The notes beneath the pieces were generated by a model. That model made no database searches. It worked only from the letters and a program-made list of their open reading frames with translations, and had not been told where the DNA came from. Made by a program: the position numbers and the translations under genes. From sequence record PP514360: DNA of 44,319 nt; one strand, written 5' to 3'. Source of the DNA: Escherichia phage HK1. Positions 9,753 through 35,594 of the stretch are shown here, one piece after another; positions within the stretch are counted from its first letter, which is position 1, and each line of letters begins with the position of its first letter.

Positions 9753-11175
9753 TGCTTAAGTCCTCGTCAGTAGCTTCCGACCACGCAGGGCGCGGGTCGT
9801 CGATTGGTGCTAACACCGGTTTAGCGGGTGCGCGTGTGATTTTAGCACACAGCTTCGCCCACACTTTCGGCTTCTCGTCCTTCAGTACCTTCTCGGCATC
9901 GGTCGGGCTGAGCAATGTTTCTTTGTACATCACATCGCGCTTGATCCGGGCCTTCGTGAAGATTTCAATCACTTCGCTCTCGTCTGCCCACTTACGGATC
10001 CCTTCCTTACCGGCAACCATCTTAAGGCCCAACGATTCGCCATCGCCCGCCATGACCGCCTTGAATACCGCGTACTCGATAGCTTTGATGTGCTGGCGCA
10101 TTGCGTCAAGTCCTTCATAAGCCTTGCGCAGTTCCGCCGCGCTCATAGCGCCTGGGGTGGATTCCTTCTTGCCCCGTTTAGCACGTCGGGCAGCCTTCCG
10201 GGCTTCGCGGGTCATATTGCGGTCTTGGTTGGCGCACTCTTCCTCGGTTGCCACGCTCACGTCGTCGCCCAGGTCTTCGTCGGTTGCCGTTGGTGGCGTC
10301 ATCGTGTCGATTGCGGCCTTCGCCCGGACGCTGCACTGGTCCGCAAATCTGCACCACTGGCACGCATCAACGCTGGGCCGGAAGTCGGCGCGGGTGAGTC
10401 CTTTTTTACCGCGGGCGTACGCTTCCAGTGCGGCGATAGCACGCTTGGACGCAAACTTCGCGAATATCTCCAGCGCTTCCACTGAGATATCCCACTCTGA
10501 CGCCCCGCCGCAATACGGCTGGAAGATAACCAGGCGCACGGTCGTAATGTCGTACATGGTTTGCAGCTTGCGCAGCAAGCCGAGCGCGTACAACATAAGC
10601 TGTTTGTTTTCTTTTGCCTCGACCTTATGCCGCCCGGTCTTCAGGTCGCCAACAATCAGCATGTACGTTCCGTCGGTCTTTTTCATGACCATGACCATAT
10701 CGGCAGTACCGAACGTTTTAATCCTGTTGCCGTCGATCTCGAATCCTGAATGAAGGACGCGGGTCAGATCGGCGCGCATCTCAAGCTGGACAAACTCCGC
10801 CACTTCGAGGAGCGGTCGCCAGTGGTCGATGTACGCGTCGCACTGTTTCACCATATCGTCGTTGACCAGTACGCCGCCTTTCGGTGCTTTCGGGTGCGCC
10901 TTTACTGGCCCCTTGCCTTCATTCTCGACGTAACACCCTTTGTACGTCTTAGCGGTTATCAGCTTTTCCCCGGCAATGATGCGGTTTAGCACGACCTCTG
11001 ATACGGTGTGCATACTCGTACCATTAATCGCCGCTTGCCCGGATTCGTTCGGGATATCTTTTTCCACCACCAGGGCGGCGGGGCAGCCCATCCATTTTTT
11101 AGCACCGGATGGGCCGAGTAAAGAGTGTTCCGTGTTGCTACCGGATTGCGTTTTACGTTTTGGTTTAATCGCCAT
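9745..11175 (-). CDS. DUF2800-like PD-(D/E)XK nuclease (Cas4-like, Cys cluster)
   Basis: N-terminal HSLLGPSGAKKWMGCPAAL and C-terminal CQWCRFADQC cysteine cluster (Cas4-like arrangement); GGGTGG SD upstream of ATG at 11175. Confidence 0.65.
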   Translation of the reverse strand: MAIKPKRKTQSGSNTEHSLLGPSGAKKWMGCPAALVVEKDIPNESGQAAINGTSMHTVSEVVLNRIIAGEKLITAKTYKGCYVENEGKGPVKAHPKAPKGGVLVNDDMVKQCDAYIDHWRPLLEVAEFVQLEMRADLTRVLHSGFEIDGNRIKTFGTADMVMVMKKTDGTYMLIVGDLKTGRHKVEAKENKQLMLYALGLLRKLQTMYDITTVRLVIFQPYCGGASEWDISVEALEIFAKFASKRAIAALEAYARGKKGLTRADFRPSVDACQWCRFADQCSVRAKAAIDTMTPPTATDEDLGDDVSVATEEECANQDRNMTREARKAARRAKRGKKESTPGAMSAAELRKAYEGLDAMRQHIKAIEYAVFKAVMAGDGESLGLKMVAGKEGIRKWADESEVIEIFTKARIKRDVMYKETLLSPTDAEKVLKDEKPKVWAKLCAKITRAPAKPVLAPIDDPRPAWSEATDEDLSNE

Positions 11176-12413: not shown

Positions 12414-12446
12414 AAAAAAAAGCGCCGAGGCAAAATGCGACGGCGC
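12414..12446 (-). terminator. terminator-like hairpin plus U8 in the divergent control region
   Basis: Minus-strand GCGCCG-(13-nt loop)-CGGCGC followed by UUUUUUUU (A8 on the plus strand at 12414-12421); no coding gene upstream on that strand. Confidence 0.35.
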
Positions 12447-12917: not shown

Positions 12918-15182
12918 ATGAGCTTAATTAAATTCGCTGTAACAAAACCCGCTAAAAAAGGCGAAAAAGCCAGGGCGGAAAACTTCCAGATGACCACCGA
13001 TGAATTTTTCGAATTTATCAAAGATGCGAAAGAAATATCCTCGGTGCATATCAACAAAACGGAAGATAAAGCCGAGTATGCACGCCGCAAGCGTAAGGCC
13101 GACGGCATCGTGGCGTATACCAGTGACGGATTGCGTCGCAAGACCAGTGCGGTGGACCGCTCGATCCTGTTCTTTGATATTGACCGCACCGACACTCGCA
13201 CCTTGCGCCGCTGCCGTAAGGCTTTCATCGACGCGGGTCTGGAACACGTATTCCACACAACCACCGGCGACCGCCACCCACTGAAAGGTGGAACGCGTTG
13301 CGCTCGCTTCCTGGTGCTCACTGACAAGCCTGTACCGGCGGAAGACCTGGGCCGTGTCCAGTATGCGCTATTACACCAACTTGGTCTGTCAGATGTGGAC
13401 TTCGACGATTGCACGAAAGACACAAACCGCCTGATGTACCTACCACACCAGCAGTCTGTAATAAAGTGTCACTACGGCAAACGTGCCCGCGTCCGTCGTC
13501 TGCTTCGCCTGGCGGATACGCTTGGCGTGGAGAAGGAAGAAGTACGCCGCGAACTGACCCAGGGCGACGACGCAGTGGCAGACGGCATTCTTGACTGGTG
13601 CTTCCAGGCAGGATTCGAGGAGTTATCTTCCGGTCGCGGTTATGAAGTGCCGTGCCCGAACGAACATCTGCACAGCGGCGAAGGGTCGACGGCTATCATG
13701 GTTAAGGATGGCGAGATCCGTTTCAAGTGTATGCACACCGGCAACGAGTGTTGCTCCGAACTGAATAGACACCAGCACCTGGCGCTGCGTCTTATCGGGA
13801 TCCCGGACCACCTGAACGTCGAGCCACACAATATGTCCCGTAAGCAAATAGCCGCCATCCTTCCGGGGCTGGACGACGAGGAAGTCGAATCCTTATATGA
13901 ACATATTGTTGATGCGGTTGGCGACGGCGAAGAATATGGCGTGTGCACCGATGCGGATCTGGATAATGAGCCGGTTGCGCTGTTCAGTAAGCACGACCCG
14001 ATCATCGAGGGGTTGATTAACTTTAAATCAACCTGGTATATGGCTGGTGAGTCGAATATCGGTAAGTCTTTCTATGTGCTGGGCCAAATGGGCGCGGTTG
14101 CCGCGGGTATCCCGTTTGGCGGTGCGAAGGTCGTCCAGTCTCATTGCTTCTATTTCGACGCGGAAGGCGGCGAAGCCTCCAACCAGCGCAAAGAAGCATT
14201 GCAGATTAAATACGAGCACGACCTGGACAAGCTGCACATTATCGACCTGCAGTCTCGCGGCTGGGATATCACCAGCAAGTCCGGTTTGCGCGAAGTTATC
14301 AGCTTTATCAACCGCACCGCTAACGGCGAACCTGTTGGCCTGGTGGCGTTCGACTCACTCAACCAGACTGTTGCTCTGCGGTCCGCCGATGCTAAACCGT
14401 TTGACGAGAACAACGCCAGCGATATGGGTGAAGTGGTCAAAGCGCTGAAGGCCATTGCGGAAAACACAGGTGGCAGTGCGGGCGTCATCCACCACCCGGC
14501 GAAGGGTGCAAACGGCAGCAGAACCCCACGCGGATCCGGCGCACTGCATGGCGCTGTCGATTCAGCTTTCTTCCTGGAACAGCCGGACGACAACCAGCCG
14601 GGACAACTTAACCTGTATCACGAAAAGTCACGTAACGGCATCAAGCAAGCGCCGCGTGGCTTCGTCCTGCTCAAGTGCAAGGTGGCGGTAGATCTCCGCA
14701 AGTCAGAAGCGTTCGCGTCGCACCAGTCCACCAGCACCGGGCCAGACTTCGGTGACGTAGTTGCTGGTTGGGACGTCAAACCAATTGCGTCCACCCCGCG
14801 CGACGAGACTTTATACCTCGTACCGGTCGCCCTGGCACCGTTCGCTATAGAACAGGCGAAGGCCGCAGGAAAAGCCGCAGTTAAGGAAGAGAACACCGCC
14901 GGACCGCGCACCGAAAAAGAAAAGGTACTTTACGCGGCCCTGGAAAAACTGATGGAAGATAACCCGGACCATACTGGTTTCAGTAAATCGGCAATCGTCC
15001 GCCAGGCAGGACTCGCGAAGGGGGGCACTTCGACGAAGGCAATCGACGATATGGTTGAGCGCGGCGTGATCGGTTTCTATACAGATCCGCACACCGGGGC
15101 CATATATGGGTCGTCGAATTTAGTCATCAAATCGGATATCCCCATCACGCTTTCGGCGACCGATGACGACCTGAACGATTAA
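12918..15182 (+). CDS. DNA primase-helicase (N-terminal primase-like domain, C-terminal RecA-like ATPase)
   Basis: 754 aa; LFFDIDRTD (DxD, primase-polymerase-like), Cys/His cluster CPNEHLH...CMHTGNEC, Walker A GESNIGKS and AFDSLNQ in a RecA-like C-terminal half. Confidence 0.75.
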   Translation: MSLIKFAVTKPAKKGEKARAENFQMTTDEFFEFIKDAKEISSVHINKTEDKAEYARRKRKADGIVAYTSDGLRRKTSAVDRSILFFDIDRTDTRTLRRCRKAFIDAGLEHVFHTTTGDRHPLKGGTRCARFLVLTDKPVPAEDLGRVQYALLHQLGLSDVDFDDCTKDTNRLMYLPHQQSVIKCHYGKRARVRRLLRLADTLGVEKEEVRRELTQGDDAVADGILDWCFQAGFEELSSGRGYEVPCPNEHLHSGEGSTAIMVKDGEIRFKCMHTGNECCSELNRHQHLALRLIGIPDHLNVEPHNMSRKQIAAILPGLDDEEVESLYEHIVDAVGDGEEYGVCTDADLDNEPVALFSKHDPIIEGLINFKSTWYMAGESNIGKSFYVLGQMGAVAAGIPFGGAKVVQSHCFYFDAEGGEASNQRKEALQIKYEHDLDKLHIIDLQSRGWDITSKSGLREVISFINRTANGEPVGLVAFDSLNQTVALRSADAKPFDENNASDMGEVVKALKAIAENTGGSAGVIHHPAKGANGSRTPRGSGALHGAVDSAFFLEQPDDNQPGQLNLYHEKSRNGIKQAPRGFVLLKCKVAVDLRKSEAFASHQSTSTGPDFGDVVAGWDVKPIASTPRDETLYLVPVALAPFAIEQAKAAGKAAVKEENTAGPRTEKEKVLYAALEKLMEDNPDHTGFSKSAIVRQAGLAKGGTSTKAIDDMVERGVIGFYTDPHTGAIYGSSNLVIKSDIPITLSATDDDLND

Positions 15183-15275
15183 ATTTTGCGCGCATTGGTT
15201 GCCATTTTGAGCGTTTTTATCTGGGCGCATTGGTTGCCGTGTAGTGTGAATATAATGCATAGTTATGCAATAAAA

Positions 15276-15450
15276 CTGCATAAAACAAACGGGACAAAAA
15301 GCGGGACAAACAGGAGGCGGGACAAAGCGGGACAGCACCCCGTCCCACCCACGGATGACGCGGCCTGGCGAGGAGCGGGACAGCGGGACAGCACCCCAGT
15401 CTTTCAGACTAGACGGGGGGTCTGTCACCCCCCTCGTCTGAGACTGCATA
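15276..15450. repeat. copy A of duplicated non-coding module (GCGGGACA array plus GC-rich hairpin)
   Basis: CTGCATAAAACAAAC followed by four direct GGGACA repeats, GGGAC-agcacccc-GTCCC, two more GCGGGACA, then hairpin CAGTCTTTCAGACTAGACGGGGGG-tctgtca-CCCCCCTCGTCTGAGACTG. Near-identical to 32076-32250. Confidence 0.8.
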
Positions 15451-30457: not shown

Positions 30458-31183
30458 ATGGGTTATCAACTTCCTAACGGGTCCAGCGTGCAGATTGGGT
30501 CCGTATTAGGTGCAGGCATCGCAGTTACGGCAGCGACCAACGCCGCGGCGTCGATCTCCGACCTTACGCAAGGTTGCGTAATTACCTGCGCTGCTTCGCA
30601 TGGCCTGGTTGTAGGCGACGTTGTTATGTTCACTAAAACCCCGTGGGTCCGTGCGCTGAACCGCGCGTTCATCGTGGGTAAAGTGGATACTAACGACGTG
30701 ACGCTGGCGCGCTTCGACACCTCGGACGTCACCAAATACCCGACCGGTGCTTTCGGCGCAGGCACACCTGGTGAGGTGGTGAAGGTGTCGAGCTTTATCG
30801 ACTTCCCGTTTATCACTAACGTTGCCGTGTCTGGCGGCGACCAGCAGACCACCACCTTCCAGCCGTTGCAGGTGAATACCGCGATCAGTCTGAACACCAC
30901 GAAAAACCCGTTGGTCCAGACCTACACTTTCACCCACGACGAAGAAGACCCGATCCGCCCGATTCTGGAAGACCTGGACGACACACAGAAAACCACTGTG
31001 ATTAAGTTCACCAACCCGGCAGCGGCAAGCGGCAAAGGTGAGATCCGTATTTACCCGGCGAAGGTGTCTTTCCGGAAGATTCCATCGGCTGAAGTAAACA
31101 ACGTGGAGACGGTGGAGTCCACCCTCACTATGCAGTCCGATATGGTTATTTACCGTAAAGATCTGGTCGAGGCATTGTCTTGA
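30458..31183 (+). CDS. major tail protein
   Basis: 241 aa ORF with AGGAG SD, followed by a terminator and then the G/GT chaperone pair and tape measure (conserved siphovirus order). Confidence 0.65.
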   Translation: MGYQLPNGSSVQIGSVLGAGIAVTAATNAAASISDLTQGCVITCAASHGLVVGDVVMFTKTPWVRALNRAFIVGKVDTNDVTLARFDTSDVTKYPTGAFGAGTPGEVVKVSSFIDFPFITNVAVSGGDQQTTTFQPLQVNTAISLNTTKNPLVQTYTFTHDEEDPIRPILEDLDDTQKTTVIKFTNPAAASGKGEIRIYPAKVSFRKIPSAEVNNVETVESTLTMQSDMVIYRKDLVEALS

Positions 31184-31213: not shown

Positions 31214-31237
31214 GGGGCCAGCACGGCCCCTTTTTTA
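31214..31237 (+). terminator. intrinsic terminator after the major tail gene (GGGGCC-N-GGCCCC family)
   Basis: GGGGCC-agcac-GGCCCC followed by TTTTTT. Confidence 0.6.
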
Positions 31238-31252
31238 TTGGAGAATACTACA

Positions 31253-31615
31253 ATGGCTAAAGCACCACTCTTTACACTTGACCCTAAGCCTACTTTTAAG
31301 CTGCCGATTGAGATCCCGCGCCCAGGCGAAAACGAACCGGGCAAAATGACGTTTACCGTGCGCCACCGTCCGATCGACGAATTTTCGCAGACCATGCAGG
31401 ACACGGAGCGCAAGCTGTCGGAATACGACGACAACGACCAGGAAGGCTTTAACGTTATGGTCGAGGCCATCATGCACGTCGCTGAAGGCTGGAATCTGCC
31501 AGATGAATTTAACGCGGAGAACGTCCGCCGCCTGGTGGTTAACTACCCTCGCGCGTTCGGTGTGTTCCACACGTCGTACTATCTCGAACTAATGGGACTG
31601 CGTGAAAAAAACTAA
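31253..31615 (+). CDS. tail assembly chaperone (lambda G-like)
   Basis: 120 aa ORF directly upstream of the tape measure; GGAGAA SD; ends with slippery A_AAA_AAC immediately before its stop. Confidence 0.65.
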   Translation: MAKAPLFTLDPKPTFKLPIEIPRPGENEPGKMTFTVRHRPIDEFSQTMQDTERKLSEYDDNDQEGFNVMVEAIMHVAEGWNLPDEFNAENVRRLVVNYPRAFGVFHTSYYLELMGLREKN

Positions 31616-31929
31616 TTGAGGCGGCGCGACGCTTTTATGGCCCGCCGCCACCCTCCGAAGATTTAGCAGCAAGTTTATGGGGTGCGTCCCCCGAAGATGT
31701 TTGTCCGCCTGTTGCACTATGGCCCGACAACGCGAAGATAGTCGCAGTCTTCACCGATTGCGCCACTCAATGGCGCACAGGATTCGGTGGCGCATACGGC
31801 ATCGACTATGGCGTGCTGGAGTGGCTATTCAAGATGCACGGCATCGAAAACGCGCAACGTGCGTTTAAAGATATCAAGCTAATGGAACGCGTTGCGCTGG
31901 ACGAAATGGCGCGACAGAACCCCGCATAA
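31253..31929 (+). CDS. tail assembly chaperone frameshift product (lambda GT-like, -1 frameshift at 31606-31612)
   Basis: The -1 frame is open from the slippery heptamer to the TAA at 31927-31929 (about 105 extra codons, checked codon by codon). Confidence 0.55.
31606..31612 (+). other. programmed -1 ribosomal frameshift slippery heptamer (A_AAA_AAC)
   Basis: In the G frame the codons are GAA AAA AAC TAA; the heptamer A AAA AAC fits the X_XXY_YYZ pattern and the -1 frame is open to 31929. Confidence 0.55.
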
Positions 31930-31933
31930 CGAA

Positions 31934-31967
31934 GCGGGACAAAACGGGACGTCCCGTTTTGTCCCGC
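31934..31967. promoter_or_regulatory. perfect 34-bp palindrome built from GCGGGACA units
   Basis: GCGGGACAAAACGGGAC|GTCCCGTTTTGTCCCGC, five nt after the GT stop codon; candidate operator or hairpin. Confidence 0.55.
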
Positions 31968-32075
31968 CGCCATTAAACCGCATATATACTCACTTTCATT
32001 GCATAAACTAAAAGCGGGACGGGGTGCTGTCCCGATCTGTCCCACCCCTTAAAAGTGAATAGCTATGCGGTTTTT

Positions 32076-32250
32076 CTGCATAAAACAAACGGGACAGAAA
32101 GCGGGACAGAATGAGGCGGGACAAAGCGGGACAGCACCCCGTCCCCGTCAGTGCTGCCGCGGGTTTTAGCCGATCGGGACAGGCGGGACAAAGCCCAGTC
32201 TTTCAGACTAGACGGGGGTCATCGGCCCCCCTCGTCTGAGACTGAATAAG
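32076..32250. repeat. copy B of duplicated non-coding module (GCGGGACA array plus GC-rich hairpin)
   Basis: Same order of elements as copy A with a few substitutions; hairpin arms conserved while the loop differs (tcatcgg versus tctgtca). Confidence 0.8.
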
Positions 32251-32312
32251 GTTTGTTTTAAATTCGCTGATACAATGACCGACGGCAACTGCATAAAAAG
32301 GGGGACTGCATA

Positions 32313-34955
32313 ATGGCAGATCAGGCAGCGGGCATCACGCTCAAGGCGGACGTCGCGCAAATTAAAACGGCTAATACTGTGCTGGACACATTTGCGCAGA
32401 AATCCGAGAACACAGAACAGAAAGTAAAGAAATTAAACGACACACTCGGCAAGTCGAAAAAGGTCACTGGTGACGCCGCGGGCGGAATGGAAAAGTTAGC
32501 GACTGAATCGCAGCGCGCAGCCGACGGCATGACGAAACAGGAGCGACTCGCCAGCCGATTAGGCATGTCGACCAAAAACCTGGGATTCGCATCGCGGAAT
32601 GCCGCATTCCAGTTACAGGATATCGCGGTGACGCTTGAAATGGGTATGCCGGTGCATCGAGTCATGCTTCAGCAGTTACCACAGCTTACTGGGGCGTTTG
32701 GCGGGTTGGGGAATACGCTGCGTTATGTCGTCGGCACACTCGGCCCGTTAGGGATCGGCATCGCTGCATTAACGGCAACGATGGGCGTTGGCGTGTCGAT
32801 TATGTCCCGCGCGGAAAACCAAGTGGCGGCGCTTAACAAGACGCTGGCGCTGTCCGGTAATATTTCTGGCCTCACCGCTAACCAGATCCTGGTGCTATCT
32901 GAGAACGCCGAGCGTATGGGCGGGTCATTCCGCAAGACGCGTGACACCATTCAGTCACTGGCGGCGGCTGGTGTGAAAGCGGGTGCGGACTTCGGCGCAC
33001 TGGCGAAAGTGGTGAATGACTTCTCTAAGGTGTCCAGCCAGCCGATCGAAGAAGTTGTCGCGGCGGTAGCGAAGCTGTCAACCGACCCGGTAGGCGGCTT
33101 GCGCGCACTGGCGGATAAGTATCACGTCGTAAACGAAGCGCAGATCCAGCAAGTGCAGTCGCTTGTGGATATGGGTCGTGAGACAGACGCAGTTGCGCTG
33201 GCGAACAAAACCGCCGCGGCATCGTTCACCACTATGACCAACGATATCAAGGCGAACATGGGTACGCTTGAGCGTTCCATGAACGTCGTCACATCGGCAG
33301 CCAAATCAATGTGGGACGCCATTCTGGATGTTGGACGCGCGCAGTCCTCCAATGAGTCCGAGATGAAAGCGCGTGAATCCTTGCAGCGCATGACTACGGC
33401 TTACTATGCCGAGATGAAAGCGGTTAACGCTGCCGGTGGGGTAATGACTGAAGCGCAGAAAGCACGTATTAACATGCTTTACAGCGAACTGGTCGCCCAG
33501 GAAAAAGTAGTGGCGTCGCTCACCCTGCGTAACCGTGCGGAGCGAGACAACGCCCGCGCCGCGGACGAATCAGCAAAGGCGAACGAGGAGGCCAACCGCA
33601 CCGCCCGCGACCGCGCCGCGTTCGAGAAGGAGTACGCAACTAACGCGAAGAAGCGCGCCGACGAGATCGCCCGCCTCAATTTGCTGAATAAGCGCGGCGT
33701 TATTGATGAGAAAGAGCTTGCTGAGGCAGTTAAGCAGGTAAACGAGCGTTACAAAGACCCGGCCCCGAAGAAGGCCGCGGCTGTTCGCGTGGATGCCGGT
33801 ATGAAAATGCTGGAAGTCGCACGGAGCGAACTGGCCCAGCTTCGAGAATCAGGCAAGCAGATCGAAGCCAACGCATCTACGCAGACCCGCACGCAACGCG
33901 CTCAAGCGGCCTTAAACAAGCTGATCGCCGACAACGAGCAGTTAGTCGCCGCGAGTAAAGAAAGGGCGCTAACGGCAGCGGAAAAGCAGCAGATGGTGGA
34001 ATTTGGACGCGTGAAGGAAGTCCGCGAGCAGATCGTCGAAGAAGCCAAATTGCTGGATGCGAAAGAGAAGCAGATCAAAGCCCACGCGCAGGTCGACGCT
34101 TTCCTCAAGAATCAGAACGCCGAGATAAAGGCCACCGCTGCGGGCTACGCACTGTCTACGCGCGAAGCGGCTAACCTGCGTGAAGAATTGCAGCTAATCG
34201 ACCGCCTGAAGCGTGTAGGCGCTAACGATACCGATATTGACAAGGCGGTGTCTAAGCTGCGGGAAGTGCAGGAGGCGCAGACCGGCGCTAACGCCTCGCT
34301 ATGGGATGGATTCAGTCGCGGGCTTAAGGATAGCGTGGATGAAATGGGTAACGGATATACGCAGATGGCGTCGCTCACTAAATTCACGTTCAGCGCTATG
34401 CAAGACACGATGAACGAGTTTTTCGAGACGGGCAAGATTAACGCGAAGGATATGGTCAAATCCATCCTGAGCGAATTAATCAAGCTGGCTACATCGCAGG
34501 CATTCAAGTCCATCGTTAGCGCATTCGGTGGTGACGGCGGCAAAAACGGATTGTTCGGCGCTATCTTCTCTGGCCTGACTAAGAATGCGGACGGCGGAGC
34601 GTACGCAGGAGGCAATCTAGCAGCCTATTCGGGGAAAGTGGTAAGCCAGCCTACCTTTTTCAGTTATGGCGTCCAGGCGTTCGCTAAGGGCGCAGGGTTG
34701 ATGGGTGAGGCTGGACCCGAGGCCATCATGCCACTGAAGCGCGGGCCGGACGGTAAACTGGGCGTTGCCGCGTCTGGCGCAGGCGGTGGTATGGTCGTGA
34801 CGACTAACGTTTACACTGTGACCGGTAAAACGGATGCCAGTGTCAGCGGGCCGGACCCCCGTACCGCGCAGGCGTTCGGCAAGCAAATCACCGAGGCGGT
34901 GAAGGCTGAGATCGTGAAAGCGACGAAACCGGGTGGTGTACTTTACAAACGATGA
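32313..34955 (+). CDS. tail tape measure protein
   Basis: 880 aa, Ala/Gln/Glu-rich helical protein with a Gly-rich C-terminal region, between the chaperone pair and the M-L-K-I-J genes. Confidence 0.85.
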   Translation: MADQAAGITLKADVAQIKTANTVLDTFAQKSENTEQKVKKLNDTLGKSKKVTGDAAGGMEKLATESQRAADGMTKQERLASRLGMSTKNLGFASRNAAFQLQDIAVTLEMGMPVHRVMLQQLPQLTGAFGGLGNTLRYVVGTLGPLGIGIAALTATMGVGVSIMSRAENQVAALNKTLALSGNISGLTANQILVLSENAERMGGSFRKTRDTIQSLAAAGVKAGADFGALAKVVNDFSKVSSQPIEEVVAAVAKLSTDPVGGLRALADKYHVVNEAQIQQVQSLVDMGRETDAVALANKTAAASFTTMTNDIKANMGTLERSMNVVTSAAKSMWDAILDVGRAQSSNESEMKARESLQRMTTAYYAEMKAVNAAGGVMTEAQKARINMLYSELVAQEKVVASLTLRNRAERDNARAADESAKANEEANRTARDRAAFEKEYATNAKKRADEIARLNLLNKRGVIDEKELAEAVKQVNERYKDPAPKKAAAVRVDAGMKMLEVARSELAQLRESGKQIEANASTQTRTQRAQAALNKLIADNEQLVAASKERALTAAEKQQMVEFGRVKEVREQIVEEAKLLDAKEKQIKAHAQVDAFLKNQNAEIKATAAGYALSTREAANLREELQLIDRLKRVGANDTDIDKAVSKLREVQEAQTGANASLWDGFSRGLKDSVDEMGNGYTQMASLTKFTFSAMQDTMNEFFETGKINAKDMVKSILSELIKLATSQAFKSIVSAFGGDGGKNGLFGAIFSGLTKNADGGAYAGGNLAAYSGKVVSQPTFFSYGVQAFAKGAGLMGEAGPEAIMPLKRGPDGKLGVAASGAGGGMVVTTNVYTVTGKTDASVSGPDPRTAQAFGKQITEAVKAEIVKATKPGGVLYKR

Positions 34956-34962
34956 TAAAATG

Positions 34963-34994
34963 GCCCTCACATCCATCGTGGGGGCTTTTTTTTT
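34963..34994 (+). terminator. terminator/attenuator between tape measure and distal tail genes
   Basis: GCCCTCAC-atccatc-GTGGGGGC (one G-U pair) followed by T9. Confidence 0.5.
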
Positions 34995-35594
34995 ATGTCA
35001 CAAGGTACGATCACATTAACTAAGGATAGTAAGACCGTTACAGGCGCGGGGACGGCGTTCCTTAGCGAGATCGGGAAGGTACTCGTATTCGCCCGCATCG
35101 ACGGCAACGACTACACCGGCAAAATTGCGGCGTTCAACTCGAACACGGTCATTACACTGAAAGATAACTGGGCCGGTCCAACGAAATCCGGTGCGGTATA
35201 TGAGCTAATCGAAGCGCACGACCCTCGATCAAACGAATGGCCATACTACTGGCACATGCAATTGCAAGGCGGCGGAGACGTGCAGTTGGCTTTCCGGTCG
35301 GAGGAATTGCAATTCGGTAACGGTTACGGTCAGAACATCGCGGACGGCCCGAACGCCGAAACGAAACAATTTCCCGTGCAATTCGTCGGACTGACTACCG
35401 ACAAGTGGTGTAACCCTAAGCTGGTTTACAACTTCCTTCGCGGGCACTTTGTAAAACCGTTCATCGTCACCGCGCCGGATGGCGAGACAGGTTTATTCGT
35501 GGTCGAGCGTTCGAGCTTGTCGTACACTGACAACGGGCACTACACGGCAACCGTATCCGCCACCCTGAAAACAGCCATTGGATTCGTAAGATGA
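34995..35594 (+). CDS. minor tail protein (lambda M-like)
   Basis: 199 aa; first of the conserved M-L-K-I-J series after the tape measure. Confidence 0.7.
   Translation: MSQGTITLTKDSKTVTGAGTAFLSEIGKVLVFARIDGNDYTGKIAAFNSNTVITLKDNWAGPTKSGAVYELIEAHDPRSNEWPYYWHMQLQGGGDVQLAFRSEELQFGNGYGQNIADGPNAETKQFPVQFVGLTTDKWCNPKLVYNFLRGHFVKPFIVTAPDGETGLFVVERSSLSYTDNGHYTATVSATLKTAIGFVR

What the first reader, a model, noticed from the sequence alone, without database searches (positions are those of the whole stretch)
31606..31612. Programmed -1 frameshift (A_AAA_AAC) at the very end of the tail chaperone gene
The G-like ORF ends ...GAA AAA AAC TAA. Slipping -1 on A_AAA_AAC opens a frame that runs ~105 codons without a stop to 31927-31929 (verified codon by codon), giving the G/GT pair conserved in tailed phages. 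Here the slippery site is the last two sense codons before the stop.
Basis: partly seen in the sequence, partly recalled or inferred. Interest (0 to 1): 0.5.

Follow-up and report, generated by a model that had tools for sequence, protein, structure and literature searches.

The report
Tail chaperone G/GT -1 frameshift site
This is an ordinary but real example of the programmed -1 ribosomal frameshift that tailed phages use to make a short and a long tail-assembly chaperone from one gene, here in a Dhillonvirus-type E. coli phage whose public relatives mostly leave it unannotated.

Summary
The 120-codon ORF 31253-31615 ends CGT GAA AAA AAC TAA. A_AAA_AAC is 31606-31612. The -1 frame is open only from 31606 (TGA at 31603-05) and runs 105 sense codons to TAA at 31927-29, so the two frames overlap by exactly the heptamer.

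The upstream ORF is a full-length Pfam Phage_TAC_4 tail assembly chaperone and the -1 ORF a full-length DUF1799 domain. They lie between the tail tube and tape measure genes. The -1 ORF has no usable start codon.

In about 125 related loci (95 distinct sequences; T parts down to 37% identical), retrieved with peptide patterns that lie away from the junction, all but two distinct sequences keep AAAAAAC flush against the stop with T in the -1 frame.

A G+C-rich hairpin (31620-31649) starts 7 nt after the heptamer. Among Dhillonviruses, synonymous sites from heptamer to hairpin end are almost frozen (1 of 15 variable against 123 of 198 elsewhere). No compensatory changes were seen.

This is a new member of a well-known kind (lambda G/GT). 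The same motif next to the stop was already noted for Acinetobacter phage Loki. Interest is low; the main value is correcting annotation.

The parts
30458..31183 (+). Major tail (tube) protein gene, upstream neighbour of the chaperone pair
   Evidence: Pfam PF08813 Phage_tail_3, E 5e-33; phrog_584 major tail protein
31214..31236 (+). Terminator-like hairpin GGGGCC..GGCCCC followed by TTTTTT, between the tube gene and G
   Evidence: Consensus scan. Inferred to lower transcription into G/GT/tape measure; not tested.
31253..31615 (+). G: tail assembly chaperone ORF, 120 aa, ends GAA AAA AAC TAA
   Evidence: Pfam PF08748 Phage_TAC_4, 1-124 of 124, E 2.6e-24. GGAG lies 9 nt before the ATG. Annotated with the same length in relatives.
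31603..31605 (+). TGA stop in the -1 frame immediately 5' of the heptamer; closes the T frame upstream
   Evidence: Specific to the CGT codon of Dhillonviruses; relatives with CGC/CGG lack it.
31606..31612 (+). Slippery heptamer A_AAA_AAC (P-site codon AAA Lys, A-site codon AAC Asn)
   Evidence: Positions -7 to -1 are 98-100% conserved in 95 distinct homologous sequences, while nearby third codon positions are 35-55% conserved.
31613..31615 (+). TAA stop of G, flush against the heptamer; possible 'shifty stop' contributor
   Evidence: A stop at this exact position (TAA, TGA or TAG) in nearly all relatives.
31620..31649 (+). Candidate stimulatory hairpin, 7-bp G+C outer stem GGCGGCG/CGCCGCC plus inner pairs, 7 nt after the heptamer
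   Evidence: -15.6 kcal/mol alone, -17.1 in context; lowest 2-3% of genome windows. Stems invariant and synonymous sites suppressed among Dhillonviruses, Fisher p 2.5e-5. Kept in relatives that are 58-60% identical. No compensatory double changes.
31612..31929 (+). T: -1 frame extension, 105 codons plus TAA; reached only by the frameshift
   Evidence: Pfam PF08809 DUF1799, 1-80 of 80, E 1.4e-20. Third-position substitution bias. First ATG/GTG/TTG in this frame is GTG 31813, inside the domain.
31253..31929 (+). GT fusion coding region (31253-31612 joined to 31612-31929), 225 aa, junction ...LREKN-LIEAARR...
   Evidence: phrog_17368, a 213-position profile, matches the G part at positions 1-107 and the T part at 150-212.
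32313..34955 (+). Tape measure protein gene, downstream neighbour and presumed client of G/GT
   Evidence: Pfam PF06791 TMP_2, E 1.6e-42, and PF09718; phrog_24

Best explanation
Most ribosomes translating the chaperone gene (31253-31615) stop at TAA 31613 and release the 120-aa G protein. A small fraction slip back one base on A_AAA_AAC (31606-31612). The slip could be tandem, with tRNA-Lys moving AAA to AAA and tRNA-Asn moving AAC to AAA. It could also be peptidyl-tRNA-Asn slipping alone while the slowly decoded stop sits in the A site. Either way the ribosome reads CUA next and continues for 105 codons, giving a 225-aa GT protein (...REKN-LIEAARR...) that carries a DUF1799 'T' domain.

A G+C-rich hairpin starting 7 nt downstream probably pauses the ribosome over the heptamer and raises the slip rate.

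By analogy with lambda, G and the G part of GT would coat the tape measure protein, and the T part would recruit the tube protein. The fixed low GT:G ratio would be set by the frameshift efficiency.

Shown here: the sequence anatomy, the domain identities, the gene order and the conservation. Inferred: that the slip occurs, its efficiency, the role of the hairpin and the stop, and the assembly function.
For: **Anatomy**
- Heptamer in phase, with a frame overlap of exactly 7 nt.

**Identity and gene order**
- PF08748 and PF08809, both full length, lie between PF08813 (tube) and PF06791 (tape measure).
- A PHROG profile spans both parts.

**T is a real coding frame without its own start**
- Substitution bias is 66:19:8 by codon position.
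- There is no start codon before codon 68.
- The codon after the junction is ATT, ATA, AGG or AGC in relatives, never a conserved start.

**Conservation**
- AAAAAAC plus stop is found in 93 of 95 distinct sequences and 35 of 36 dissimilar representatives. These come from IMG/VR, GTDB genomes and T1-like phages, and include a Synechococcus MAG and a Peptococcaceae MAG.
- Loci were retrieved with peptide patterns that do not cover the junction.
- In this phage's structural genes GAA, AAA and AAC are used for 49%, 48% and 75% of Glu, Lys and Asn codons. Codon preference therefore does not explain the invariance.
- Distant DUF1799 ORFs that extend upstream read KKL (12) or GKL (5) just before the T homology, out of 28 that reach that far. 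These are the -1-frame readings of A_AAA_AAC-T and, probably, G_GGA_AAC-T.
- None of the 150 best of 1075 DUF1799 representatives is a G-T in-frame fusion; all are 38-150 aa.

**Hairpin**
- The spacer is 7 nt. The literature gives 5-8 nt as typical and a peak at 7 nt for stem-loops (PMC3458567).
- Synonymous sites are suppressed from 31604 to 31649: 1 of 15 variable against 123 of 198 elsewhere, p 2.5e-5. Variation resumes at 31650.
- The family-wide folding-energy profile has its deepest dip in windows starting 3-6 nt from the first base of the stop, z -1.3.

**Literature**
- AAAAAAC adjacent to the stop was proposed as the chaperone frameshift site in phage Loki (PMC5313236).
- A_AAA_AAC is a recognised -1 site (PMC5009743).
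Against: - No protein or RNA data exist for this phage.
- In E. coli, A_AAA_AAC is much less shift-prone than A_AAA_AAG (PMC5009743), so efficiency may be low. A low efficiency is what a G/GT pair needs.
- Hairpin support is only moderate. 17% of synonymous recodings of the T frame fold as well. There are no compensatory double changes. A second energy dip of similar depth lies about 140 nt downstream.
- There is no detectable sequence similarity to lambda gpG or gpT.
- The fold search on a mediocre model (pLDDT 70) found no chaperone structure.
- Deposited annotations, including lambda's RefSeq record, list two separate genes rather than a joined one, so they neither support nor contradict the frameshift.
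Confidence: 0.85

Rival explanations
1. Transcriptional slippage. RNA polymerase stutters on the run of seven A (31605-31611) and adds one A to a fraction of transcripts. Standard translation of those mRNAs then gives GT with junction ...REKK-LIEAARR...
For: The run is 7 A, the second longest A run in the window. An extra A gives the same 225-aa frame. Transcriptional slippage is an established alternative to ribosomal frameshifting in bacteria and IS elements (PMC5009743).
Against: - What is conserved is the phased heptamer, not run length. T1-like phages and two MAGs have GTA/GCA AAA AAC with only 6 A, and no relative has a longer run.
- From my own knowledge, efficient slippage by E. coli RNA polymerase needs about 9 or more A/T.
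- A conserved hairpin at frameshift spacing, with suppressed synonymous sites, has no role in this model.
- Lineages that appear to read G_GGA_AAC (inferred from GKL) or that have A_AAG have no homopolymer run.
Confidence: 0.07
2. T is made on its own, by internal initiation or by termination-reinitiation at the G stop (for example at ATT 31615, where the HK578 record starts gp16), and is never fused to G.
For: Public records annotate a separate downstream ORF (HK578 gp16 10795-11109; SRT8 gp17). Gene callers find 60-150-aa stand-alone DUF1799 ORFs in many genomes.
Against: - In this window the -1 frame has no ATG, GTG or TTG until 31813, which would delete the N-terminal two-thirds of T, including more than half of the DUF1799 domain.
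- There is no Shine-Dalgarno sequence before 31615.
- The codon at the ATT position is not conserved as any start-like codon.
- T homology begins exactly at the junction Leu in all clades.
- Independent initiation would not need an invariant in-phase slippery heptamer.
Confidence: 0.05
3. Chance open frame: the -1 ORF is not expressed and the heptamer is coincidental.
For: AAAAAAC is not over-represented in the window: 3 observed against 7.65 expected.
Against: Full-length Pfam domain. Purifying selection on the frame. Longer than any -1 frame segment in ten neighbouring genes. Arrangement conserved in more than 100 loci across phyla.
Confidence: 0.01

Closest known systems
Phage lambda G/GT tail assembly chaperones (Levin, Hendrix & Casjens 1993; Xu, Hendrix & Duda 2004, 2013, 2014)
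   Same: - Two ORFs between the tube and tape measure genes.
- The second ORF is in the -1 frame, lacks its own start, and is reached from a heptameric slippery site near the end of the first.
- Expected result: a short abundant product and a rare long one.
   Different: - No detectable sequence similarity (hhalign probability 0.2-1.5%).
- The heptamer is A_AAA_AAC, not G_GGA_AAG.
- It abuts the stop, whereas lambda has 5 sense codons in between.
- A candidate downstream hairpin is present. From my own knowledge, lambda's site is reported to need none.
Acinetobacter phage vB_AbaS_Loki gp12/gp13 (PMC5313236)
   Same: [quoted passage not shown] This is the same motif in the same position.
   Different: Different phage group and host. 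I did not test whether Loki gp12/gp13 belong to PF08748/PF08809. That site is also a prediction only.
T1-like phages (Drexlerviridae) 'tape measure chaperone' gene pairs, e.g. SRT8 gp18/gp17, IsaakIselin, DTL
   Same: Homologous T domain, 30-38% identical. G ends GTA AAA AAC TAA with T in the -1 frame. SRT8 and IsaakIselin have a strong hairpin 4-6 nt downstream (-19 to -20 kcal/mol); DTL does not (-7.7 kcal/mol).
   Different: 6 A instead of 7. The hairpin sequence is unrelated. Rogunavirus e4/1c has GCA AAG GTC TAA (an A_AAG site) instead.
E. coli dnaX -1 frameshift cassette (A_AAA_AAG, upstream Shine-Dalgarno-like element, downstream stem-loop)
   Same: A-rich heptamer decoded by tRNA-Lys in the P site; a downstream G+C-rich stem-loop at similar spacing.
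   Different: - The A-site codon is AAC (Asn), which is far less shifty in E. coli.
- No clear upstream SD-like stimulator. The conserved GGG about 10 nt upstream is a conserved Gly codon.
- The purpose is a rare extended product, not a 1:1 truncated one.

Membership tests
G/GT-type tail assembly chaperone pair with programmed -1 frameshift | Two consecutive ORFs located between the major tail (tube) gene and the tape measure gene | tested here: met
   PF08813 at 30458-31183; G at 31253-31615; T at 31612-31929; PF06791 at 32313-34955
G/GT-type tail assembly chaperone pair with programmed -1 frameshift | Downstream ORF in the -1 frame, overlapping the end of the upstream ORF, without its own start signal | tested here: met
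   7-nt overlap. First start codon in the T frame is at codon 68. No SD.
G/GT-type tail assembly chaperone pair with programmed -1 frameshift | Slippery sequence (X_XXY_YYZ) in phase within the overlap | tested here: met
   A_AAA_AAC at 31606-31612 fills the whole overlap
G/GT-type tail assembly chaperone pair with programmed -1 frameshift | Slippery site and frame relation conserved in homologues | tested here: met
   93 of 95 distinct sequences; 35 of 36 dissimilar representatives
G/GT-type tail assembly chaperone pair with programmed -1 frameshift | Both G and a minor GT product are made; both are needed for tail assembly and absent from virions | not testable with these tools
   Needs proteomics and genetics
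G/GT-type tail assembly chaperone pair with programmed -1 frameshift | Sequence homology to lambda gpG/gpT (not strictly defining: these chaperones are known to be highly diverged) | tested here: not met
   hhalign probability 0.2% (G) and 1.5% (T)
Pfam PF08748 Phage_TAC_4 | Score above the gathering threshold over the full model | tested here: met
   86.2 bits against a 21.1 cut-off; model positions 1-124 of 124
Pfam PF08809 DUF1799 | Score above the gathering threshold over the full model | tested here: met
   73.7 bits against a 26 cut-off; model positions 1-80 of 80, residues 23-99 of the T part
Tail assembly chaperone spiral fold (Pell et al. 2013) | Structural similarity of G to solved chaperone structures | tested here: inconclusive
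-1 PRF cassette with 3' stimulatory structure | Stable stem-loop or pseudoknot 5-8 nt downstream of the heptamer, supported by conservation or covariation | tested here: inconclusive
   Hairpin at 7 nt, -17 kcal/mol, with synonymous sites suppressed. But no compensatory changes, and 17% of synonymous recodings fold as well.

The most novel reading that the evidence does not exclude
The zero-frame stop flush against the heptamer is an obligatory part of the signal in this whole chaperone family. Under this reading the shift is mainly a termination-coupled ('shifty stop') -1 slip of peptidyl-tRNA-Asn from AAC to AAA while the stop waits in the A site. The G:GT ratio would then depend on release-factor activity and on which stop codon a phage carries (TAA, TGA or TAG).

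The data are compatible with this. The stop position is invariant. The -1-frame Leu codon is only CTA or CTG in 95 of 95 distinct sequences, although CTC and CTT make up a third of CTN codons in this phage.
Probability: 0.3. Interest if true: 0.4.

Novelty: new member of a known kind. Interest (0 to 1): 0.2.

Why it matters
Mostly for annotation.

- In the Dhillonvirus records I inspected (YD-2008.s, Kenya-K19, TheodorHerzl, HK578, EE09, Teewinot, Bas85), the 225-aa GT product is not annotated.
- T appears there as a truncated 'hypothetical protein', as an ORF with an ATT start, or not at all. G and T are often mislabelled 'tail length tape measure protein' through PHROG names.
- The same applies to more than 1000 DUF1799 ORF clusters in metagenomes, which are called as stand-alone small proteins.

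Biologically it adds one more well-conserved case to the G/GT rule. It also offers a compact natural cassette for studying low-level -1 frameshifting in E. coli on an AAC A-site codon: heptamer, then stop, then a 7-nt spacer, then a hairpin.

Tried and rejected
- **Fused GT query, the search for homologous proteins:** only 2 hits, both G-only. This says nothing about natural fusions.
- **Fused GT query, representative library:** The T part alone was used instead.
- **PDB by sequence:** no hit.
- **NCBIfam:** no family for either part.
- **Rfam on 31400-32400:** only sub-threshold noise and no frameshift-element family.
- **Covariation test of the hairpin:** no double changes, so nothing for or against from covariation.
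- **Whole-segment fold z-score for 31606-31700:** unremarkable at -0.34. Only the local hairpin stands out.
- **Homology to lambda G/T:** none.
- **Joined-CDS annotation as evidence:** dropped, because even lambda's RefSeq record lists G and T separately.
- **An upstream Shine-Dalgarno-like stimulator (GGG about 10 nt 5'):** considered and set aside, because the GGG is a conserved Gly codon and pairs poorly with the anti-SD.
- **Literature searches for Dhillonvirus/HK578 plus frameshift, and for DUF1799:** nothing specific found. Xu et al. 2004 is not held.

Full report
**What the window is.** The region around the finding is 92-94% identical to Escherichia phages of the genus Dhillonvirus (YD-2008.s, JL1, SSL-2009a, EP23, HK578). 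A 141-nt stretch across the site is 100% identical to Dhillonvirus sp. EcoIv6a_Kente. The local gene order on the + strand is:
- tail terminator-like ORFs;
- major tail tube protein 30458-31183 (PF08813);
- a terminator-like hairpin 31214-31236;
- a 120-codon ORF 31253-31615;
- a 383-nt gap;
- the tape measure gene 32313-34955 (PF06791 and PF09718).

**Checking the observation.**
- The ORF ends CTG CGT GAA AAA AAC TAA, so A_AAA_AAC occupies 31606-31612 in the correct phase and the stop is 31613-31615.
- Two details were missed. The -1 frame is closed by TGA at 31603-31605, so the stretch in which a -1 shift can link the frames is exactly the heptamer. The likely start of G is ATG 31253, 9 nt after GGAG, not the mechanical TTG at 31238.
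- The heptamer alone is not statistically unusual: 3 copies in 44 kb against 7.65 expected.
- A 105-codon open -1 frame exceeds all 167 stop-to-stop segments in the -1 frames of ten neighbouring genes, where the maximum is 90.

**What the two frames encode.**
- G matches Pfam Phage_TAC_4 (PF08748) over the whole model (E 2.6e-24).
- The -1 product matches DUF1799 (PF08809) over the whole model (E 1.4e-20, residues 23-99).
- PHROGs files both under 'tail length tape measure protein'. That label is misleading, and it has spread into RefSeq annotations of G in relatives.
- One PHROG profile of 213 positions matches the G part at 1-107 and the T part at 150-212, so fused forms are present in that family's membership.
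- Among 19 Dhillonvirus sequences, variable columns in the T region fall 66:19:8 on codon positions 3:1:2 of the -1 frame. This is the signature of a translated frame.
- The -1 frame has no ATG, GTG or TTG before GTG 31813, which lies inside the domain. Nothing resembling a ribosome binding site precedes 31615.

**Comparative test.**
- I collected about 125 loci, using peptide patterns that lie away from the junction for the T-based scans: 19 from IMG/VR with G, 79 from IMG/VR and 24 from GTDB genomes with a T alignment, plus annotated phage records.
- In 95 distinct 150-nt stretches, positions -7 to -1 before the stop are 98-100% AAAAAAC. Third codon positions just upstream are only 35-55% conserved.
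- 35 of 36 mutually dissimilar representatives have the heptamer flush against a stop (TAA, TGA or TAG), with T in the -1 frame.
- This holds for enterobacterial prophages whose T part is 37-49% identical, for T1-like phages (SRT8, IsaakIselin and DTL: GTA AAA AAC TAA), for a Synechococcus MAG and for a Peptococcaceae MAG.
- In this phage's own genes GAA, AAA and AAC account for 49%, 48% and 75% of their synonymous sets, so codon preference does not explain the invariance.
- A full HMMER scan of 1.84 billion representatives with the T part found 1075 relatives. The best 150 are all 38-150 aa, and none is an in-frame G-T fusion.
- Of the 28 representatives whose called ORF extends far enough upstream, 12 read KKL and 5 read GKL just before the T homology. 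These are the -1 readings of A_AAA_AAC-T and, probably, G_GGA_AAC-T.
- Exceptions are informative rather than contradictory. Rogunavirus e4/1c has GCA AAG GTC TAA, containing the E. coli-shifty A_AAG. A Nitrotoga prophage has AAG GGG AAA ATC TAG followed by a very strong hairpin.

**Downstream element.**
- A hairpin at 31620-31649 has a GGCGGCG/CGCCGCC outer stem plus inner pairs. It folds at -15.6 kcal/mol alone and -17.1 in context, and starts 7 nt after the heptamer. The literature gives 5-8 nt as typical spacing, with stem-loop stimulation peaking at 7 nt (PMC3458567).
- Its stability is in the lowest 2-3% of windows of this genome. However, 17% of synonymous recodings of the same peptide fold as well, so energy alone is weak evidence.
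- Stronger evidence comes from variation among 19 Dhillonviruses. Only 1 of 15 third codon positions between 31604 and 31649 varies, against 123 of 198 elsewhere in G and T (Fisher p 2.5e-5). The three variable bases inside the element lie in the spacer, a bulge and an internal loop. Variation resumes at 31650, one base past the stem.
- Relatives that are 58-60% identical keep the outer stem, with one C-to-U change giving G-U. They rebuild different inner stems through synonymous changes.
- There are no compensatory double changes, so covariation neither supports nor opposes the structure.
- Across 36 representatives, the mean folding-energy profile has its deepest dip in windows starting 3-6 nt from the first base of the stop (z -1.3). 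A similar dip lies about 140 nt downstream.
- I therefore treat the hairpin as a probable, not proven, stimulator.

**Mechanism.**
- The best-supported reading is a programmed -1 ribosomal frameshift giving G (120 aa) and GT (225 aa, junction ...REKN-LIEAARR...).
- Tandem slippage (Lys AAA to AAA, Asn AAC to AAA) and single P-site slippage of tRNA-Asn with the stop in the A site give the same protein. A slip of tRNA-Lys one codon earlier, or transcriptional insertion of an A, would give ...REKK-LIE....
- A_AAA_AAC is a recognised -1 site, but in E. coli it is much weaker than A_AAA_AAG (PMC5009743). That suits a pair in which the long form must be rare: lambda's G:GT ratio is about 30:1, and a phage chaperone cluster measured 6-7% (PMC3711429).
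- The stop is always flush against the heptamer. The -1-frame Leu codon is CTA or CTG in 95 of 95 sequences, although CTC and CTT make up a third of CTN codons here. This suggests the stop itself is under selection and may contribute to the shift. That is inference.

**Rivals.**
- *Transcriptional slippage* on the A7 run is possible in principle. However, the conserved unit is the phased A6C. Several lineages have only 6 A or no run at all, and the conserved hairpin has no role in that model.
- *Independent translation of T* lacks a start codon and a conserved start-like codon, and it would not need the heptamer.
- *A chance ORF* is excluded by domain content and conservation.

**Comparison with what is known.**
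- This works like lambda G/GT and meets every sequence-level criterion of that class. It shows no detectable sequence similarity to gpG or gpT. In lambda the slip site sits 5 codons before the stop.
- The same motif adjacent to the stop has already been pointed out for Acinetobacter phage Loki and IME_AB3 (PMC5313236).
- I found no paper describing it for Dhillonviruses.
- None of the seven Dhillonvirus records I opened annotates a fusion. HK578 lists the full T frame as a separate gp16 beginning at the last base of the G stop. Lambda's own RefSeq record also lists G and T separately, so this is weak evidence of neglect.

**Verdict.** It is a new member of a known kind and of low interest. The useful additions are a family-wide invariant 'heptamer plus stop' signal, a likely hairpin stimulator, and a clear annotation correction.

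Noticed in passing
window 15262-15450 and 32062-32252: A non-coding module of about 190 bp occurs twice in the same orientation, 82% identical. Each copy has CTGCATAAAAC, tandem (G)CGGGACA units, a GGGACAGCACCCCGTCCC hairpin, more CGGGACA units, then a long hairpin CAGTCTTTCAGACTAGACGGGGG..CCCCCCTCGTCTGAGACTG. One copy follows the 754-aa ORF 12918-15182; the other lies between the T stop and the tape measure start. 18 of the 32 CGGGAC sites in the window fall in these two clusters. Most Dhillonvirus hits matched the query at two places, so the duplication looks conserved. Function unknown; possibly a regulator-binding array plus terminator.
   Followed up: partly
window 31934-31967: A perfect 34-bp palindrome GCGGGACAAAACGGGAC|GTCCCGTTTTGTCCCGC lies 5 nt after the T stop. 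The HK578 record calls its inner part a rho-independent terminator. A terminator between GT and the tape measure gene, followed by a 350-nt untranslated gap, is unusual for a tail operon.
   Followed up: no
window 31930-32312; L129 970-1281; L131 968-1291: The gap between T and the tape measure gene has no + strand ORF of 50 aa or more here. In EE09 and RuthEpting_Bas85 the same position carries an annotated hypothetical ORF of about 100 aa. The site is variable and may accept inserted genes.
   Followed up: no
L024 (MN840485.1, Escherichia phage 2725-N35) about 880-925: The chaperone gene reads CGA GTA AAA ACT AAA with 5 A, where the relative DTL has CGA GTA AAA AAC TAA with 6 A. This puts T in the +1 frame and extends G by 13 codons. 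It is probably a homopolymer miscall or a recent indel at the slippery site.
   Followed up: partly
L136 (phage e4/1c) about 660-690; L123 (Candidatus Nitrotoga sp. M5 contig) about 875-935: Two lineages have replaced the heptamer. e4/1c has GCA AAG GTC TAA (an A_AAG site). The Nitrotoga prophage has AAG GGG AAA ATC TAG followed 2 nt later by a -32 kcal/mol hairpin. The frame relation and junction position are kept.
   Followed up: partly
PHROGs phrog_569, phrog_680, phrog_17368; RefSeq NC_027383.1, NC_019724.1, NC_047893.1: The chaperone G and T families are labelled 'tail length tape measure protein' in PHROGs. That name has been copied onto the 120-aa G gene, and sometimes T, in RefSeq phage records that already carry the real 880-aa tape measure gene.
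   Followed up: partly
window 34986-34994 and 12414-12421: The longest homopolymer runs in the window are T9, immediately before the ATG of the minor tail gene at 34995, and A8 at 12414-12421, where several short ORFs overlap on both strands. Neither was examined.
   Followed up: no
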